Made by a program: the position numbers and the translations under genes. Below the pieces are notes generated by a model, which saw nothing but the letters and a program-made list of their open reading frames with translations, had not been told where the DNA came from and did no database searches. From a virus: a stretch of DNA of 6,141 nucleotides. The stretch spans positions 1 to 6,141 of IMG/VR virus record IMGVR_UViG_3300020030_000034. One strand, given 5' to 3'. Below are positions 1 through 6,141 of the stretch, one piece after another (positions within the stretch are counted from its first letter, which is position 1; each line of letters starts with the position of its first letter).

Positions 1-99
1 CAAGAAAATCACCAACGCCAGCAGATACGAATTTTCGCGTATAACGGCGATGTTGGAGGAGGCAAGATAAAGGTGTAAGGTTTCCATCTACGGTAACAT
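1..99. repeat. Terminal direct repeat, copy 1 (identical to 6043..6141); overlap from assembling a circular genome
   Basis: I compared the first 99 nt (caagaaaatcaccaacgcc...ctacggtaacat) base by base with the last 99 nt and they are identical. The Rep reading frame is continuous across the implied junction. Confidence 0.95.
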
Positions 100-885: not shown

Positions 886-926
886 AATCTAAAAATATTA
901 CTTAACGACAATTACTACGTTTCGCC

Positions 927-968
927 GGCCGACAGCCTTAACGGCTGGGACGCTACGCGTCTTCGGCC
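927..968. other. Compact three-way-junction DNA/RNA fold in the non-coding region
   Basis: The outer stem is ggccga (927-932) paired with tcggcc (963-968). It encloses two hairpins: cagcc (933-937)/ggctg (943-947) with loop ttaac, and gacgc (949-953)/gcgtc (957-961) with loop tac. Single-nucleotide linkers sit at 948 and 962. A further hairpin, accgg (996-1000)/ccggt (1005-1009) with loop taaa, lies just beyond it. Confidence 0.5.
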
Positions 969-1010
969 TCCGTGGCTCCACTTCGTTTGAGATATACCGG
1001 TAAACCGGTG

Positions 1011-1050
1011 AACAAAAAAGAACCCGCAGGAGGGGGGGAATCTCCTGGGG
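1011..1050 (-). terminator. Rho-independent-type terminator (GC stem-loop followed by a T-tract) downstream of the 107-aa ORF
   Basis: The minus strand reads CCCCAGGAG-attcccccc-CTCCTGCGGG followed by TTCTTTTTTGTT. This gives a 9-bp stem with one bulged C and a 9-nt loop, followed directly by the T-run (plus-strand coordinates 1011-1022). It lies 47 nt after the ORF stop at 1097. Confidence 0.5.
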
Positions 1051-1096
1051 CTCAGCGAGTTAAAGGACTCTTCCACCAAGCGGGCGGGTCACTACT

Positions 1097-1821: not shown

Positions 1822-3195
1822 CTAATGAAACTTTCGAGTAGTATTGTATGAGCTCGAGTGAGTGCCGCGAGTCATCTCTGTTTTAGCGTAACCGACAAGA
1901 TTTCCTTTCGAGTCGTAACGAGTTGTGAGTGAAGAACCAGCGGAATTGCTGGAAGAACCGCCAGCGGAAATAGTGCCAGCGGCACGAGACATCCCACCTC
2001 GTATAATACCAGCGCCGGCAACGCTACCCGCAACACTAACCAAAGCTTTTGAGATTTCAATATACGGGTCAAGTTTTGCGTTACGAAGGGCAATGCGAGC
2101 CTGTTCGGGAAGAAACTCAGAAGCATTCGCCTGATTTATAACGGTCTTATCGTAAAAGTCTTTAAGAGACATCGAAACCTTAAAAGATCTAGAGCCAGGA
2201 TTACCGCGAGTAATAGGATTAGAACTACGAAGATTATTTTCGTACTGAGGATTCGGAATTTCAATATCAAAGCGCTTATCCCAATTACGCGAAAGCTCAT
2301 AGGCAGAATCAAGATTATTGAGACGAAGAGATTCAATCACCTCACGAGACTGCTCGCCAAGAATCTGATTGAGTACGCCCTGGGTGTTCATCATGAAGGC
2401 CTGAGCAGACATGAGTGCACCCAAATTATCGTTCTCAATACCCAAACGCTTAACTAATGCAGCAACATAAGCGGCTTGATTCTTCTTTTCATCAACGGAA
2501 CTCAGAAGAGTGGTATCGGAGATAAATCGATTATTCTTTTCTATATCCTCTTGAACCTTAAGAACATCACGAGCGGCTAGATTATGTTTAGTGATAGCAT
2601 CATCAAGAGCTACACGGGCGTGAGCCATAGCAGTATAAAGTTGATTGCCAACATTCTGGTCATCAATAGAACGAGCCTCCGCCTCATCACGATCAGCGGC
2701 AGCCTTATTGCGCTCAATGGTCGAATTGATACCCATGGCATCAAGGGCAACTCCAGCAGCGGAAGAGCCAACGCCAGGAGGCAGAGGGCTGGAGAAGTCA
2801 AAAGAACCACCGGAAGGGCCAGAAGCGCCTACAGAACCAGCAGAGCCGCCGGACATGGTAGCGTTGACGCCAACGCCCGAAGAGCCAAGAACAGCAGCGG
2901 GCGAAATACCGGCTTTAAGATAACGGTTAAAAACCTTCGAAGGGTCGTTGTAGGCGTTCTCATAGTCAAACTGCTTTTGCCAGTTAGCATAATTAATCTC
3001 GCCTTGTTTCTGCATCTGTTCAAGGGCATACTGCTGCTGCAATTTCATCTGCTTCTGCTGGTACTTCCACTGACGCTTCAAACTAGGCTTGAAAAGACTG
3101 GAGGCGACCTGACCGCCAGCGGAAATACCGGCAGCTCCAAGTATAGCACCCGTGGAGATGGGCTCGACGTAGGACTTAAAATCAATGAGTTGCAT
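1822..3195 (-). CDS. VP2: Minor capsid / DNA pilot protein (Microviridae VP2, analogue of phiX174 H), 457 aa
   Basis: The N-terminal region reads ...QQKQMKLQQQYALEQMQKQGEINYANWQKQFDYENAYNDPSKVFNRYLKAGISPAAVLG. It has the Q-rich helical segment and the R-x-x-x-AG-(L/I)-(N/S)-P motif typical of VP2. It also has Gly/Ser-rich tracts, a central coiled-coil-like region, and the expected size and position for VP2. Confidence 0.8.
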   Translation of the reverse strand: MQLIDFKSYVEPISTGAILGAAGISAGGQVASSLFKPSLKRQWKYQQKQMKLQQQYALEQMQKQGEINYANWQKQFDYENAYNDPSKVFNRYLKAGISPAAVLGSSGVGVNATMSGGSAGSVGASGPSGGSFDFSSPLPPGVGSSAAGVALDAMGINSTIERNKAAADRDEAEARSIDDQNVGNQLYTAMAHARVALDDAITKHNLAARDVLKVQEDIEKNNRFISDTTLLSSVDEKKNQAAYVAALVKRLGIENDNLGALMSAQAFMMNTQGVLNQILGEQSREVIESLRLNNLDSAYELSRNWDKRFDIEIPNPQYENNLRSSNPITRGNPGSRSFKVSMSLKDFYDKTVINQANASEFLPEQARIALRNAKLDPYIEISKALVSVAGSVAGAGIIRGGMSRAAGTISAGGSSSNSAGSSLTTRYDSKGNLVGYAKTEMTRGTHSSSYNTTRKFH

Positions 3196-3196
3196 A

Positions 3197-3388
3197 TTAC
3201 GGAAGCGTAAAGTTGTTCGAGCGAATAATGTAGTCTACACGAACAGTATCAATATGAACACCTGCTCGAGCAATCTTAGCTTGCGCAGAACACGAAGCGA
3301 GAAAAAAGGCAGCCAACGCAGCAACGATAGACGAGACAAGCGTCCAAAACGCCTTCGACTTATAAAACGGTTGTTTGATATCAGACAT
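3197..3388 (-). CDS. Small predicted lipoprotein or membrane protein, 63 aa (alternative upstream ATG at 3499 would give 100 aa)
   Basis: The sequence is MSDIKQPFYKSKAFWTLVSSIVAALAAFFLASCSAQAKIARAGVHIDTVRVDYIIRSNNFTLP. It has a positively charged n-region (K5, K10, K12), a hydrophobic core of about 18 aa, and the lipobox L-A-S-C with Cys33. Cleavage there would leave a 31-aa mature peptide. The stop at 3197-3199 lies 1 nt before the VP2 ATG. Confidence 0.6.
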   Translation of the reverse strand: MSDIKQPFYKSKAFWTLVSSIVAALAAFFLASCSAQAKIARAGVHIDTVRVDYIIRSNNFTLP

Positions 3389-3521
3389 AGTAGTAGAATT
3401 TAAAGAACGATAGAAAAATACGCGGCCTCTCCCGCAGTCGTTACCAATAACCTCTAGCAATTCACGAACTCTTGCAAGAGGGGTCCGCGCACGTAGCATA
3501 TATCGTCAAGTAAAGGATATA

Positions 3522-3818
3522 CTATTTTTCTTCAGGATCAGAGGGATTCGAAGTAGGTTTAGCCTTATCGATCATTGAATCAATAAGTTCCTGTCCAACT
3601 TCGAGACCGTCAAACTTATCCATTCGGGAAAACGAATTAGGATCAAAGTCGATATCAGGGTTAAACTTCTCGCCCTTCTCAAAATCAGAAGGCTCGACCG
3701 TCACGTCCGGACGGCCAGGGAGAACATCAACAGAACCTGAGCCATCAAGGACAGACAAAATACGCTGACCACGAGAAATATAATCTTCGCGATCTTCAAT
3801 CATCCAATCTAATGCCAT
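3522..3818 (-). CDS. Acidic 98-aa protein directly downstream of VP1; possible internal scaffolding protein (VP3-like), function uncertain
   Basis: It is an ATG-initiated ORF 11 nt after the VP1 stop. It is very rich in Asp/Glu (…EDREDY…EPSDFEKGEKFNPDIDFDPNSF…DPEEK). The functional call rests only on position and charge. Confidence 0.65.
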   Translation of the reverse strand: MALDWMIEDREDYISRGQRILSVLDGSGSVDVLPGRPDVTVEPSDFEKGEKFNPDIDFDPNSFSRMDKFDGLEVGQELIDSMIDKAKPTSNPSDPEEK

Positions 3819-3829
3819 AAAATGTAATA

Positions 3830-5653
3830 TTAACGGTTAGACAAACGGGTTGCAAAGGTTTTATTAATAAGATTCTTCTTCTGGACAGCATAAGACATAT
3901 TCACAAAGAAATTGTCCTCTGCATTGGAAAGAAAAGGAGAATTAACCTGCGACAAATCGACAAAAAGGGCAGGCGCATAATCAGCCTTCGAAGGCCAATA
4001 GGCGCTCCAATTCAACTGACGCTGCTGCACCCAATAAGCATAAAGAGCTCGACCGCCAACATTTCCAGCGGTACAAGAAATTTGACCTAAAACCTCATCA
4101 TAAGAGGACCGAAACTCATTAAAGCAGGGCTCTTGCGAGAAAGTCGTCTCGACGACACCGCCAACAAGATTACCGAAACGCCAATTAGGTACGCTCTGAT
4201 ACCCTATGTCATTGTAGATTGGATTGAAATAATCAGAACCTCGATAATTCAAGTAGTCAGGCTTAATCTGCGACCAGAAATAAACAGGTCGAATACTCAG
4301 CATATCAATCAAATAACCAGGTTCGCGGAAGTAATAAGACTGTCGGCGACCAAGACGATCATTAAAGGCGATAGCACCTCCCTGCTGGCCAAGGGGACCC
4401 ATGGACGAATCGCCGCCAAAGTTGTTGAATCCAGCTTGATTCATAATAACCTGTACGTTAATAGTCTGAGAAGCGCTAAAGAGAAGTTTCGGGCGATCAA
4501 CGTGCTCAATTTTAGAGGCAAAAAAAGTCTCCAGCCAATCACTATAGCGAGAGCCGCCAGCGCCAAGCAAATCCTTATATTCCTGGAGACGAGAAGCAAT
4601 AGCCAACTGCGGAATGGTTTGAACGCCAGTCATCGAAACAGCAGAACTACTACCAATAGGAAGGAGCCGACTAAATCGATCAGGATTAGACGGGATGACG
4701 GCTAGCGGATGAGCAAGATTGAAAATAATAGGCTCAGCGAGACCCTTTGTATCGTCGCACGAACTAAATTGATCAAGGGGAGCCATCGTTCCCCAGATAT
4801 GAAGCGCGGTTGGTTGAGACGAAACCGGATAGCCGTCACCGGAAGCACCAGCAGCAGAACCAGAAGAGGAAATATCGGAGGCGATAATCTGCCGAAGCAA
4901 AGCAGAGCGACAATAGGTATTATTGGAAGACCCTACAGCTGCGGGATAAAATTGACTCTCGAAATAAGCATCAAGGAACTCAAGATTACCATAACGTTGA
5001 GTAAAATACGAGTCCGAAGCATTCGAATTAAAAACGTAGGTGCCATTGGAGGAGGTAGAGCGGTTTGTTACGGTATAATACCAAGAAGCGGGCCAAGCAA
5101 AGGAATAGAGTCCCCACTGCGAATAGCCGTAATAATTTCGAACGATATCCCAATAAGCAAGATACGTATCAGCGTTAGCCCAAATACCTCCTGTAACACT
5201 CGAAGGGAGGACAACGCCGGAAGTTGAGGCAGGCGTAGTAAAATCAACCGAACGGTTAGACACGCGCAGCCAATACATAAGCGAATTAGGGAAGGTTGAA
5301 GTAACAGCAGGAGTCGCGCCAGACGAAGGGATTCCTGGAACTGCGTTGATCCAATTAAGACTCAAGCCATTCATGTCGAACTTGCTGCTATTCGTTCGAA
5401 GTTCAGGATGATACAACTGAAGCGGCACCCAAAAACGGTGGAGTCGAATAGTATAAGGGTTAAATGTCGGAACAGCAAGCGGATTACTCCGAACGTCAAT
5501 GCCTTGCTCAATAGACACACGATCACGAGCGTTAATAAAATCGATTCGCACCGGATACAGAATACCCGGTGTGCACGTAAAGGCCTTACTCTCAGGAACA
5601 TCATAACGAGAGTAGCCATTTACGGCGTGTGAGATAAAAGGTTGTTTTCCCAT
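3830..5653 (-). CDS. VP1: Major capsid protein (Microviridae VP1 / F family), 607 aa
   Basis: It is the largest ORF. The N-terminus reads ...YDVPESKAFTCTPGILYPVRIDFINARDRVSIEQGIDVRSNPLAVPTFNPYTIRLHRFWVPLQLY, which matches the conserved microvirus VP1 pattern (G-x-L-x-P, then ...R..P...P, then h-x-F-(F/W)-V-P-x-(R/Q)). The C-terminal half is aromatic-rich and consistent with a jelly-roll fold. The ATG lies 3 nt after the Rep stop. Confidence 0.93.
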   Translation of the reverse strand: MGKQPFISHAVNGYSRYDVPESKAFTCTPGILYPVRIDFINARDRVSIEQGIDVRSNPLAVPTFNPYTIRLHRFWVPLQLYHPELRTNSSKFDMNGLSLNWINAVPGIPSSGATPAVTSTFPNSLMYWLRVSNRSVDFTTPASTSGVVLPSSVTGGIWANADTYLAYWDIVRNYYGYSQWGLYSFAWPASWYYTVTNRSTSSNGTYVFNSNASDSYFTQRYGNLEFLDAYFESQFYPAAVGSSNNTYCRSALLRQIIASDISSSGSAAGASGDGYPVSSQPTALHIWGTMAPLDQFSSCDDTKGLAEPIIFNLAHPLAVIPSNPDRFSRLLPIGSSSAVSMTGVQTIPQLAIASRLQEYKDLLGAGGSRYSDWLETFFASKIEHVDRPKLLFSASQTINVQVIMNQAGFNNFGGDSSMGPLGQQGGAIAFNDRLGRRQSYYFREPGYLIDMLSIRPVYFWSQIKPDYLNYRGSDYFNPIYNDIGYQSVPNWRFGNLVGGVVETTFSQEPCFNEFRSSYDEVLGQISCTAGNVGGRALYAYWVQQRQLNWSAYWPSKADYAPALFVDLSQVNSPFLSNAEDNFFVNMSYAVQKKNLINKTFATRLSNR

Positions 5654-5656
5654 AAA

Positions 5657-6141
5657 TTAAATGTTTAGTTGAAGTTTATAATGATCTCTCCAAAACTGAA
5701 GAATATCTTGATCTAACCAAGCAGGAGGGTCAAAATCGGGCATCTTCCGAGAGGACGCGGCGAAACGCATTATTTGCTTTTGCTCCCAAGCATATGACGC
5801 TCTACGGGATACGGCGGAATTGAGACCGAACCGTTCAACACACAAAGACACAATACGCTTAACCAGAGAAGACCTGCTAAAATGTGCATAAGCATCAGCA
5901 GCGGCAATCGAGCGCGTAACCTCGTCTTCTGATTTAAGATACCTAAGATAGTATCGAGGAATCGTGTAGTTGTAATTGATACTCTTCTTACAATCAAAAT
6001 AAGACCACGACGAAACGCTAGCAGAAGGGCGAGGCATATAACCAAGAAAATCACCAACGCCAGCAGATACGAATTTTCGCGTATAACGGCGATGTTGGAG
6101 GAGGCAAGATAAAGGTGTAAGGTTTCCATCTACGGTAACAT
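5657..6141 (-). CDS. VP4: Replication initiation protein VP4/Rep, C-terminal part. 5657..6042 is unique sequence; 6043..6141 duplicates codons already counted in 1..99.
   Basis: The 126-aa track ORF (5657..6037) is in frame with the open frame leaving position 1: ...GVGDFLG|YMPRPSASVSS.... Frame check: the top base of each codon is congruent to 1 mod 3 on both sides (685, 6043, 6037). The joined length is 685+386 = 1,071 nt, giving 356 aa plus a stop (TAA at 5657-5659). Confidence 0.88.
   Translation of the reverse strand, partial: VTVDGNLTPLSCLLQHRRYTRKFVSAGVGDFLGYMPRPSASVSSWSYFDCKKSINYNYTIPRYYLRYLKSEDEVTRSIAAADAYAHFSRSSLVKRIVSLCVERFGLNSAVSRRASYAWEQKQIMRFAASSRKMPDFDPPAWLDQDILQFWRDHYKLQLNI
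6043..6141. repeat. Terminal direct repeat, copy 2 (identical to 1..99)
   Basis: Same comparison as for copy 1. The implied unit genome length is 6,042 nt. Confidence 0.95.

What the first reader, a model, noticed from the sequence alone, without database searches (positions are those of the whole stretch)
3197..3388. Small lipoprotein-signal gene between the scaffold-like ORF and VP2: candidate lysis or exclusion factor
The 63-aa product has a textbook signal-peptidase-II architecture: a K-rich n-region, a hydrophobic core, and the lipobox LAS|C. It would leave only a 31-residue mature lipopeptide. No other gene in the genome resembles a lysin, a peptidase or an E-like protein. phiX174-type phages lyse with a small membrane-anchored protein (E), while lysis in gokusho- and alpavirus-like phages is essentially unexplained. 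A tiny phage-encoded lipoprotein could act in lysis (by analogy with o-spanins or single-gene lysis proteins) or in superinfection exclusion or receptor masking at the outer membrane. The functional proposal is inference.
Basis: partly seen in the sequence, partly recalled or inferred. Interest (0 to 1): 0.7.

Follow-up and report, generated by a model that had tools for sequence, protein, structure and literature searches.

The report
Conserved tiny lipoprotein gene in gut microviruses
This small ssDNA phage genome carries a real, strongly conserved gene for a 63-residue pre-lipoprotein that would mature into a 31-residue lipid-anchored peptide; it belongs to no described protein family and is the best candidate for how this group of gut microviruses attacks or modifies the host cell envelope, most likely to lyse the cell.

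Summary
Window 3197-3388 (minus strand) encodes a 63-aa protein with a basic N-terminus, a 20-residue hydrophobic core, the lipobox LAS|C (Cys33) and a 31-aa mature part.

The gene is intact, always 63 codons, in all 83 close genomes compared. Variation sits at third codon positions (entropy 0.26/0.14/1.08; synonymous to non-synonymous 6.8:1).

The upstream ATG at 3499, which public records use to annotate a 100-aa protein, is not the start. That frame is broken in 16 of 83 relatives and shows no codon periodicity. It lies inside a covarying non-coding hairpin element.

The Cys, preceded by S, G or A, is kept in about 200 family members. It is kept behind at least four unrelated signal peptides and ahead of two unrelated mature peptides (types A and B).

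The gene is present in every relative checked with VP1 identity of at least about 46%, and in two Alistipes prophages. It is absent from phiHBP1, which carries an M15 peptidase.

No known family matches in Pfam, NCBIfam, PHROGs, PADLOC, PDB or BFVD.

Function remains inference. Lysis, acting like the small colicin-release lipoproteins, is most likely (about 0.45). Superinfection exclusion or receptor masking is the main rival (about 0.25).

The parts
3197..3388 (-). Small pre-lipoprotein gene (63 codons plus TAA stop)
   Evidence: ORF and translation. Intact in 83 of 83 relatives with third-position variation. Family of 416 clusters at 90% identity and 56 clusters at 50% identity.
3293..3388 (-). 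Signal peptide, codons 1-32: n-region MSDIKQPFYKSK and h-region AFWTLVSSIVAALAAFFLAS
   Evidence: Sequence. AlphaFold2 helix 12-32, pLDDT about 94. K12, F14, W15, T16 and F29 are invariant in the diverse alignment.
3290..3301 (-). Lipobox L-A-S-C (codons 30-33); Cys33 is the predicted lipidated N-terminus of the mature peptide
   Evidence: Passes the PS51257-type rule. LASC, LSSC, LTSC or LVSC in 83 of 83. The -1 residue is S, G or A throughout about 200 family members.
3200..3292 (-). Mature 31-residue peptide CSAQAKIARAGVHIDTVRVDYIIRSNNFTLP (type A); predicted beta hairpin with invariant G43, H45 and D47 in the turn
   Evidence: AlphaFold2 strands 34-42 and 48-56, pLDDT 68-81. Invariant columns.
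3193..3199 (-). Stop TAA (3199-3197), one base, then the ATG of VP2 (3195-3193): a tight junction that suggests co-translation with the pilot-protein gene
   Evidence: Sequence. The same arrangement (stop, 1-2 nt, ATG of VP2) occurs in relatives.
3405..3511 (-). Conserved non-coding structured element immediately 5' of the gene. It has the invariant motif ACTTGAnnATATATG, whose ATG is the false start at 3499. The outer stem is 3490-3482 with 3427-3420, the covarying inner hairpin is 3481-3473 with 3459-3451, and a T-run and TTTCTATCGTTC follow.
   Evidence: Matches at 84-85% identity in otherwise dissimilar genomes. No codon periodicity. Covariation in 7 of 9 inner pairs; 87 double-change cells against 18.6 in shuffles, 0 of 500 shuffles as high. 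No Rfam match.
1822..3195 (-). VP2 / DNA pilot protein gene (context, immediately downstream)
   Evidence: PHROG 8689, pilot protein, E 2e-9.
3522..3818 (-). Acidic 98-aa ORF (VP3/scaffold-like by position; context, upstream)
   Evidence: ORF list. Conserved in relatives. No family hit.

Best explanation
Window 3197-3388 (minus strand) is a genuine gene, translated from the ATG at 3388. Its 63-residue product is exported through Sec, lipid-modified on Cys33 and cleaved by signal peptidase II. This leaves a 31-residue lipopeptide, a short beta hairpin with an invariant G-x-H-x-D turn, anchored on the periplasmic side of the envelope of a Bacteroidales host; relatives are integrated in Alistipes genomes. 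It is co-expressed with the late gene VP2, downstream of a structured, terminator-like element that probably keeps its level low. I think its most likely job is host lysis. On that reading it is a single-gene lysis factor acting from the periplasm or outer membrane, in the manner of the small colicin-release (bacteriocin release) lipoproteins, rather than like phiX174 E or a spanin. What is shown: the gene is real, its start is 3388, the lipoprotein architecture is conserved, the gene is core to the clade, and it has no known homologues. What is inferred: actual lipidation, final location, and the lysis function.
For: Gene and start:
- Intact in 83 of 83 relatives, with third-position variation and a 6.8:1 synonymous to non-synonymous ratio.
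- The 100-aa frame is broken in 16 of 83 relatives and shows no periodicity. ATG 3499 sits in an invariant motif of a covarying hairpin element.

Lipoprotein:
- The PS51257-type rule is met.
- The Cys is kept, with S, G or A at -1, in about 200 sequences.
- The same type-A mature peptide follows at least four unrelated signal peptides: KKFWTLV..., ISVIALLAALAVVLSLTSC in L088, and those of P0144 and of P0159/P0167. Type B follows yet another signal peptide in L101. The signal can therefore be swapped, but the lipobox Cys cannot.
- AlphaFold2 predicts a helix followed by a hairpin.

Core gene:
- Of 41 GenBank records with VP1 identity of at least 54%, 37 were verified to carry it and none was found without it. 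L102, at 46% VP1 identity, also has it.

Lysis by elimination:
- No lysin, peptidase or E-like hit in the other ORFs.
- The Bacteroides microvirus phiHBP1 has an M15A peptidase (PMC13064476) and no lipobox ORF.
- Lysis of non-phiX microviruses is unexplained apart from M15 peptidases (PMC3394797).
- Colicin lysis proteins show that a small lipoprotein alone can cause quasi-lysis (PMC9517006).

Host:
- Two Alistipes prophages carry the gene.
- No Shine-Dalgarno sequence precedes any gene.
Against: - There is no experimental or direct computational evidence for lysis.
- The h-region is long for an SPase II substrate (20 residues; signal of 32), so an uncleaved membrane anchor is possible.
- Many type-B members have E at -2 (LESC), which fails the PROSITE rule.
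- Two unrelated mature peptides (A and B) are exchanged among genomes whose VP1 proteins are equally close. That pattern fits a host-interaction or exclusion module better than an inhibitor of one conserved target.
- In Alistipes prophages the gene sits at the prophage edge upstream of Rep, a moron-like position. A lysis gene there would need tight repression.
- There is no Pfam Lysis_col hit.
- Relatives at about 40% VP1 identity (L103, L104) lack both this gene and a peptidase, so absence of a lysin is not diagnostic.
Confidence: 0.45

Rival explanations
1. Superinfection exclusion or receptor masking. The lipopeptide sits in the outer membrane or periplasm. It either blocks the phage receptor, as T5 Llp and phi80 Cor do, or blocks the incoming pilot-protein (VP2) conduit, as the Ltp lipoprotein does. 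This would protect infected or lysogenic cells and stop progeny being wasted on debris.
For: - It has the small envelope-lipoprotein architecture.
- It lies directly next to VP2 and one gene away from VP1.
- Two non-homologous mature peptides, types A and B, share a signal peptide and are distributed without regard to VP1 similarity. This is typical of specificity modules.
- It sits at the edge of Alistipes prophages, where lysogenic-conversion genes often lie.
- From my own knowledge: Llp is also conserved in strictly lytic T5-like phages.
Against: - The gene is universal and under strong purifying selection in a 6-kb genome with about 7 genes. Exclusion genes are usually sporadic.
- Its stop is 1 nt from the VP2 start, which implies late co-expression with a structural gene.
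- No similarity to Llp, Cor or any PADLOC, Pfam or NCBIfam model. The best PADLOC hit, PDC-M02A, has E 0.019-0.003, which is not significant.
- I found no clear co-variation with VP1 or VP2.
Confidence: 0.25
2. An uncleaved, signal-anchored single-gene lysis protein of the phiX174 E or LysM type. The conserved hydrophobic helix is a functional transmembrane domain that binds a membrane enzyme of cell-wall synthesis (MraY, MurJ or similar). On this view the lipobox is not processed.
For: - The hydrophobic helix is 20 residues long, enough to span the membrane.
- Within the main family the helix is the most conserved segment: K12, F14, W15, T16 and F29 are invariant. It is shared by types A and B, whose mature parts are unrelated.
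Against: - The same mature peptide occurs behind at least four unrelated hydrophobic N-termini, each ending in [x][x][S/G/A]-C. The helix sequence is therefore dispensable and the Cys is not.
- The -1 position is restricted to exactly the residues SPase II accepts.
- The mature hairpin is itself highly conserved.
- No PHROG or Pfam similarity to E or other lysis proteins.
Confidence: 0.1
3. The real product is the 100-aa protein starting at ATG 3499, as annotated in GenBank and UniProt records. It would have a 37-residue arginine-rich cytoplasmic N-terminus and an internal membrane anchor.
For: - The 100-aa frame is open in 67 of 83 relatives.
- All 120 best database hits were called as 100 aa.
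- GenBank MG945141 annotates a 303-nt feature.
- UniProt A0A8S5NN55 is 100 aa.
Against: - The frame is interrupted in 16 of 83 relatives: by a stop one codon before the internal ATG, by frameshifts or loss of the upstream ATG, or by insertions of 30-105 nt that carry stops.
- Entropy in the extension is 0.21/0.24/0.29 by codon position, with long invariant stretches that include third positions.
- The extension folds into a hairpin with compensatory changes.
- The same element occurs in L103, which has no lipoprotein gene.
- Radical G/R/W changes arise from a first-position change.
Confidence: 0.04

Closest known systems
Colicin lysis proteins / bacteriocin release proteins (Pfam Lysis_col; for example ColE1 Kil, pCloDF13 BRP)
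   Same: Both are very small pre-lipoproteins whose mature lipopeptide is only about 30 residues. Both are stand-alone, with no partner enzyme needed, and both are expressed together with a cargo that must leave the cell. [quoted passage not shown] From my own knowledge: their mature peptides are about 28-35 aa, they are processed slowly, and they have a functional stable signal peptide.
   Different: There is no sequence similarity (no Lysis_col hit at E up to 1). This gene is encoded by an ssDNA phage of Bacteroidales, not by an enterobacterial colicin plasmid. Its signal peptide is longer (32 aa). Its mature part is a predicted beta hairpin. Its function is untested.
Lambda Rz1-type o-spanins and T1 gp11 u-spanins
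   Same: These are phage-encoded lipoproteins with a lipobox and a short mature part. Rz1 has 40 aa (PMC6139136). They act in the last step of lysis of Gram-negative hosts.
   Different: An o-spanin needs an i-spanin partner and a holin-endolysin system, and a u-spanin needs a C-terminal transmembrane domain. None of these is present. Thirty-one residues cannot span the periplasm. The peptide is not proline-rich.
T5 Llp and phi80/N15 Cor superinfection-exclusion lipoproteins
   Same: They are small phage-encoded outer-membrane lipoproteins, and they lie next to genes for host-recognition or entry proteins.
   Different: There is no sequence or profile similarity. The mature part is half their size. 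Here the gene is universal in the clade and coupled to a late structural gene. Receptor blocking is untested.
phiX174 protein E (single-gene lysis protein of Microviridae)
   Same: It is in the same virus family, is a small membrane-targeted protein and is the only candidate lysis function in a tiny genome.
   Different: E is overprinted inside gene D. It has an uncleaved N-terminal transmembrane domain and a cytoplasmic C-terminus, and it inhibits MraY. This protein is a separate gene, has a lipobox, and exposes its C-terminal part to the periplasm. There is no similarity.

Membership tests
Bacterial-type lipoprotein (signal peptidase II substrate; PROSITE PS51257 rule) | K or R within the first 7 residues, and an uncharged hydrophobic region before the lipobox | tested here: met
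   K5 is present, and A13-S32 has no D, E, R or K.
Bacterial-type lipoprotein (signal peptidase II substrate; PROSITE PS51257 rule) | Lipobox [LVI][ASTVI][GAS]C with the Cys between positions 15 and 35 | tested here: met
   LASC with Cys33. Of the close relatives, 82 of 83 pass the rule. The -1 residue is S, G or A in about 200 family members. Caveat: part of type B has LESC, and L101 has its Cys at 45, so both fail the strict rule.
Bacterial-type lipoprotein (signal peptidase II substrate; PROSITE PS51257 rule) | Actual diacylglyceryl modification and cleavage (palmitate labelling, globomycin sensitivity) | not testable with these tools
   This needs an experiment. SignalP and LipoP were not available either.
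Colicin lysis protein / BRP (Pfam PF02402 Lysis_col) | Sequence membership in the Lysis_col profile | tested here: not met
   A Pfam scan at E up to 1 returned only Lir1 at E 0.15.
Colicin lysis protein / BRP (Pfam PF02402 Lysis_col) | Small pre-lipoprotein giving a mature lipopeptide of about 30 residues | tested here: met
   63-aa precursor and 31-aa mature part; 28-36 aa across the family.
Colicin lysis protein / BRP (Pfam PF02402 Lysis_col) | Causes quasi-lysis, release of cell contents and phospholipase A activation | not testable with these tools
   This needs expression experiments.
Two-component spanin (o-spanin) | A partner i-spanin gene (type II inner-membrane protein with a coiled-coil periplasmic domain), embedded, overlapping or adjacent, together with a holin-endolysin system | tested here: not met
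   All ORFs are accounted for. The neighbour is the VP2 pilot protein (PHROG 8689). There is no endolysin or holin hit.
Unimolecular spanin (T1 gp11 type) | An N-terminal lipoprotein signal plus a C-terminal transmembrane domain | tested here: not met
   The C-terminal 31 residues are polar and predicted to form a beta hairpin.
Llp / Cor superinfection-exclusion lipoproteins | Sequence or profile similarity to known members | tested here: not met
   No significant hit in Pfam, NCBIfam, PADLOC, PHROGs, PDB sequences or BFVD folds.
Llp / Cor superinfection-exclusion lipoproteins | Blocks the phage's own receptor or entry | not testable with these tools
   This needs a cultured phage-host pair.
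phiX174 E-type lysis protein | Overprinted in a scaffold gene, with an uncleaved N-terminal TMD and a cytoplasmic C-terminus | tested here: not met
   It is a separate gene lying between ORF98 and VP2, with a lipobox at the end of the helix. There is no PHROG match.

The most novel reading that the evidence does not exclude
The 31-residue lipopeptide is the sole lysis factor of this clade. That would make it the first lipoprotein-type single-gene lysis protein in an ssDNA phage. It would act from the periplasmic face on a specific envelope target of Bacteroidales, through the invariant G-x-H-x-D hairpin tip. Possible targets include an outer-membrane assembly or tethering factor, or a regulator of a cell-wall hydrolase. 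Types A and B would be alternative warheads for different hosts or targets.
Probability: 0.35. Interest if true: 0.8.

Novelty: new variant of a known kind. Interest (0 to 1): 0.62.

Why it matters
How microviruses other than phiX174 leave their hosts is still unknown, apart from the minority that carry an M15 peptidase (PMC3394797). These phages are among the most abundant in animal and human guts.

This work defines a compact and easily testable candidate:
- It is a 63-codon gene with a defined start.
- It has a predicted lipidated Cys.
- It has two natural alleles of the mature peptide.
- It has cultured-host anchors in the Alistipes montrealensis prophage.

If it is a lysis factor, it would be a new way for a phage to kill a Gram-negative cell with about 30 residues, and a probe for a vulnerable envelope target in Bacteroidales. 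If it is an exclusion factor, it would be the first described for this phage family.

The work also corrects the public annotation, which gives either a 100-aa 'hypothetical protein' or no feature. It also separates the gene from a conserved structured cis element that had been read as coding.

Tried and rejected
1. I first took the 100-aa ORF (3197-3499) as the gene. I rejected it on broken frames, lack of codon periodicity and hairpin covariation.
2. Family searches with the 63-aa protein, type B and the long form found nothing significant. I searched PHROGs, Pfam, NCBIfam, PADLOC and PDB sequences. The only weak hits were to lipoprotein signal regions (YgdI/YgdR, E 0.23; MBA N-terminus, E 0.16) and to PADLOC PDC-M02A (E 0.003-0.019).
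3. A fold search of the AlphaFold2 model against BFVD returned only the protein's own uncharacterised microvirus family. I did not run the PDB fold search, because a helix plus a hairpin is too small to be informative.
4. Rfam found no match for the upstream element or for the inserted module.
5. I looked for cellular homologues. The genome-contig scan gave only two hits, both microvirus prophages in Alistipes. Among the 56 representative clusters the only non-viral-looking hit, P0171 (950 aa, E 5e-4), looks spurious.
6. An unrelated 67-aa lipobox ORF in the distant microvirus L105 has no homologues, so it may be chance.
7. I tested whether peptide type A or B tracks VP1, VP2 or VP4 similarity. 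Types are interspersed with respect to VP1, and VP2 is too mosaic to decide.
8. Hydrophobic alternative-frame ORFs over the acidic ORF98 gene look E-like, but they are not conserved. In the window they are broken into pieces of 32 and 36 aa. I dismissed them.

Full report
WHAT THE WINDOW IS. The window is a complete circular microvirus genome, with all genes on the minus strand.
- VP4/Rep runs across the window ends.
- VP1 is at 3830-5653 (PHROG 514).
- An acidic 98-aa ORF is at 3522-3818.
- The small ORF under study is at 3197-3388.
- VP2, the pilot protein, is at 1822-3195 (PHROG 8689).
- A 101-aa ORF is at 1444-1749.
The last 99 bases repeat the first 99. This is an assembly overlap, so the true genome is 6042 nt and VP4 is 356 aa, as in relatives. 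The nearest GenBank records are faecal Microviridae from pigs, civets, rodents, lemurs and tortoises, at 72-83% nucleotide identity over parts of the genome.

THE OBSERVATION. The ORF, its sequence and its features are exactly as described.
- The n-region is MSDIKQPFYKSK.
- A13-S32 is uncharged and hydrophobic.
- The lipobox is L-A-S-C, with Cys33.
- The mature part is 31 residues.
Of 61 ATG-started ORFs of at least 35 aa in the window, this is the only one that meets the PROSITE PS51257-type rule. Shuffled genomes yield 0.23 such ORFs each, so a single occurrence could be chance. Conservation settles the matter.
- The protein has 416 database clusters at 90% identity.
- In the window plus 82 fetched relatives, at 67-98% nucleotide identity, the ORF is intact and exactly 63 codons in all 83.
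- Entropy per codon position is 0.26/0.14/1.08, and 61 of 63 third positions vary.
- Synonymous single-difference codons outnumber non-synonymous ones 6.8:1.
- 32 residues are invariant.
- The lipobox Cys is present in every sequence.

WHERE TRANSLATION STARTS. Gene callers and public records use the ATG at 3499 and give a 100-aa protein. That would bury the signal peptide. Four results argue against this start.
1. In 16 of 83 relatives the upstream frame cannot feed the small ORF. Five have a stop one codon before the internal ATG. Six have lost or frameshifted the upstream ATG. Five carry insertions of 30-105 nt containing stops.
2. The 111 nt of the extension show no codon periodicity (0.21/0.24/0.29). 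They contain long stretches that are invariant even at third positions, alongside radical G/R/W replacements caused by a first-position change.
3. The stretch is part of a 107-nt element at 3405-3511 that is kept at 84-85% identity in genomes with no other nucleotide similarity. It folds into a hairpin with strong covariation. Seven of nine inner pairs have changes on both sides. There are 87 double-change cells against 18.6 in shuffles, 0 of 500 shuffles reach that, and all slid controls are far lower. ATG 3499 lies in the invariant motif ACTTGAnnATATATG of this element.
4. The element also occurs in L103, which has no lipoprotein gene.
The start is therefore 3388. Its upstream region is AT-rich with no Shine-Dalgarno sequence, like every other gene start here, as expected for a Bacteroidota host.

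THE FAMILY AND WHY IT IS A LIPOPROTEIN. A search of 1.84 billion representative proteins found 56 clusters, all apparently microviral. The diverse alignment has these invariant positions: K12, F14, W15, T16, F29, C33, G43, H45, D47 and S57.
- More distant GenBank relatives carry, at the same position just upstream of VP2, a 65-aa ORF. It has a homologous signal peptide but an unrelated mature peptide, CTTRHYVVQSASSIKSGDTTRTTITYEQVGNFKRP. I call this type B. It has 27 clusters and is itself highly conserved.
- Conversely, the type-A mature peptide occurs behind several unrelated signal peptides: in L088, in P0144, and in P0159/P0167. A type-B-like peptide follows yet another signal peptide in L101.
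- In all these combinations the Cys is retained. The residue before it is always S, G or A, exactly the residues allowed by signal peptidase II (lipobox consensus in PMC6139136).
The signal can be swapped while the lipobox Cys is fixed. That is the strongest computational argument that the Cys is the functional N-terminus of a lipopeptide. It also argues against the idea that the hydrophobic helix is itself the active part.

AlphaFold2 with the family alignment predicts a helix at residues 12-32 (pLDDT about 94) and a beta hairpin at 34-42 and 48-56 (pLDDT 68-81). The invariant G, H and D lie in the turn.

Three caveats apply.
- The h-region is long, at 20 residues.
- About a third of type-B members examined have E at -2.
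- No dedicated signal-peptide predictor was available.
From my own knowledge: the mature N-terminus, CSAQAK, lacks the acidic export signal used by Bacteroidota for surface lipoproteins. The peptide probably faces the periplasm.

DISTRIBUTION AND HOST. Of 41 GenBank records whose VP1 is at least 54% identical, 24 contain type A by tblastn or inspection. A further 13 that I opened contain type B, a B-like variant or type A. The remaining 4 are near-duplicates that I did not open. None was found without the gene. L102, at 46% VP1 identity, also has it. L103 and L104 (38-42%) do not.

The isolated Bacteroides fragilis microvirus phiHBP1 carries an M15A peptidase (PMC13064476) and has no lipobox ORF.

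A scan of 185,579 species genomes found the gene only in two Alistipes genomes: A. montrealensis kh20 and a MAG. In both it lies inside microvirus prophages, upstream of Rep. There are no cellular homologues.

KNOWN FAMILIES. PHROGs, Pfam, NCBIfam, PADLOC and PDB sequences gave no significant match, and a BFVD fold search found only its own uncharacterised family. No paper in the library combines Microviridae with lipobox. Searches on microvirus lysis and lipoproteins found no description of such a gene.

Spanin membership fails (definitions in PMC6139136). There is no i-spanin, no C-terminal TMD and no holin-endolysin system, and the peptide is too short to span the periplasm. It is also not an E-type protein.

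By architecture and size, the closest functional analogue is the colicin lysis (bacteriocin release) protein. That is a stand-alone small lipoprotein causing quasi-lysis (PMC9517006). The two share no sequence similarity.

HOW IT MOST LIKELY WORKS. The following is shown.
- It is a conserved, translated 63-codon gene.
- It has a conserved lipoprotein signal.
- It has a conserved hairpin peptide.
- It is placed tightly before VP2: the stop, one base, then the VP2 ATG.
- It lies behind a structured, T-run-terminated element.
The rest is inferred. The peptide is exported, lipidated and cleaved. It accumulates late, together with the structural proteins, and damages the envelope so that virions escape.

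The case for lysis is by elimination and by distribution.
- It is a core gene in a genome of about 7 genes.
- It is the only exported non-structural product.
- No lysin is encoded elsewhere in the genome.
- The peptidase-bearing phiHBP1 lacks it.
- Small lipoproteins are known to suffice for lysis.

The case for the main rival, superinfection exclusion or receptor masking, rests on three points.
- The two unrelated mature alleles are shuffled among equally related genomes.
- The gene lies next to the entry protein gene.
- It sits at the prophage edge.

I put lysis at about 0.45, exclusion at about 0.25, an uncleaved E-like anchor at about 0.1 and the 100-aa reading at about 0.04. The rest is for functions not thought of. 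My separate confidences are: the gene is real, about 0.97; the start is at 3388, about 0.9; it is a lipoprotein, about 0.85.

VERDICT. The finding is real and its structural interpretation is correct. The function remains open but is now sharply testable. It is a new, phage-specific family of very small lipoproteins, in a virus family where none has been described.

Noticed in passing
window 3405-3511 (minus strand): A conserved structured non-coding element lies between the acidic ORF98 and the lipoprotein gene. It has an invariant ACTTGAnnATATATG motif, a GC-rich outer stem, a covarying inner hairpin with a conserved loop (GAGTnnGTGAAT), and then a T-run and an invariant TTTCTATCGTTC. It is kept in genomes that share no other nucleotide similarity, and in L103, which lacks the lipoprotein. 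It may be a leaky terminator that sets VP2 levels, a replication origin, or both. From memory, the 5' motif resembles the phiX174 nick-site region CAACTTGATATTAATAAC; I did not test this. There is no Rfam match.
   Followed up: yes
L067, L070, L074, L079, L082 (about 3600-3700 in L074), L090, L093: An optional module of 96-105 nt is inserted between the conserved element and the ATG of the lipoprotein gene, in both type-A and type-B genomes. It contains a hairpin with compensatory changes (GCGGTTTGGAAAACCGC, GCGCTTCGGAGAAGCGC, GCGCTCCGGAGGAGCGC). It looks like a small structured RNA or DNA element. No Rfam match.
   Followed up: partly
L086 1512-2114; L087 5977-6585; L106-L111, L114: In a sister lineage that includes an Alistipes prophage, the lipoprotein gene lies upstream of Rep and the ORF is 190-202 aa. 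The first 60 or so residues match this protein. The rest is S/L/P-rich, ends in RRGGRRGK.RPK.K.IPLGGSHL, and is entirely overprinted on a conserved 120-136-aa ORF in another frame. The long frame is open in all 9 loci and in about 33 representative clusters. This suggests a genuine overlapping gene pair.
   Followed up: partly
window 1-99 and 6043-6141: The last 99 bases duplicate the first 99, an assembly overlap of a circular contig. Naive circularisation adds 33 residues to VP4 (389 aa instead of 356). The true genome length is 6042 nt.
   Followed up: yes
window about 690-1440; L086 about 600-1510: About 750-850 nt between the 101-aa ORF and VP4 have no convincing conserved ORF. Spurious ORFs in the window (915-1079, minus strand) and in L086 (749-997) share the peptide motif KWSHG.RRR.AS.PL. 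This points to a conserved nucleotide element in the non-coding region of two different microvirus lineages. Rfam found nothing.
   Followed up: no
GenBank MG945498 (L085 2487-4112), MG945141, OM869561 and others: Public annotation of this locus is inconsistent. The small gene is missing in many records (for example OM869561, MG945730 and MG945664). In others it is annotated as 100 aa, or swallowed by an over-extended VP2 ORF in another frame. One TPA record names a type-B member 'chitin synthase regulator'.
   Followed up: partly
L105 (MZ089782) 4125-4328: A distant microvirus (VP1 31% identical) has an unannotated 67-aa ORF upstream of Rep with a lipobox (FASC) and a beta-rich 40-aa mature part. 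The architecture is analogous but there is no sequence relation. No homologues were found, so it may be chance.
   Followed up: partly
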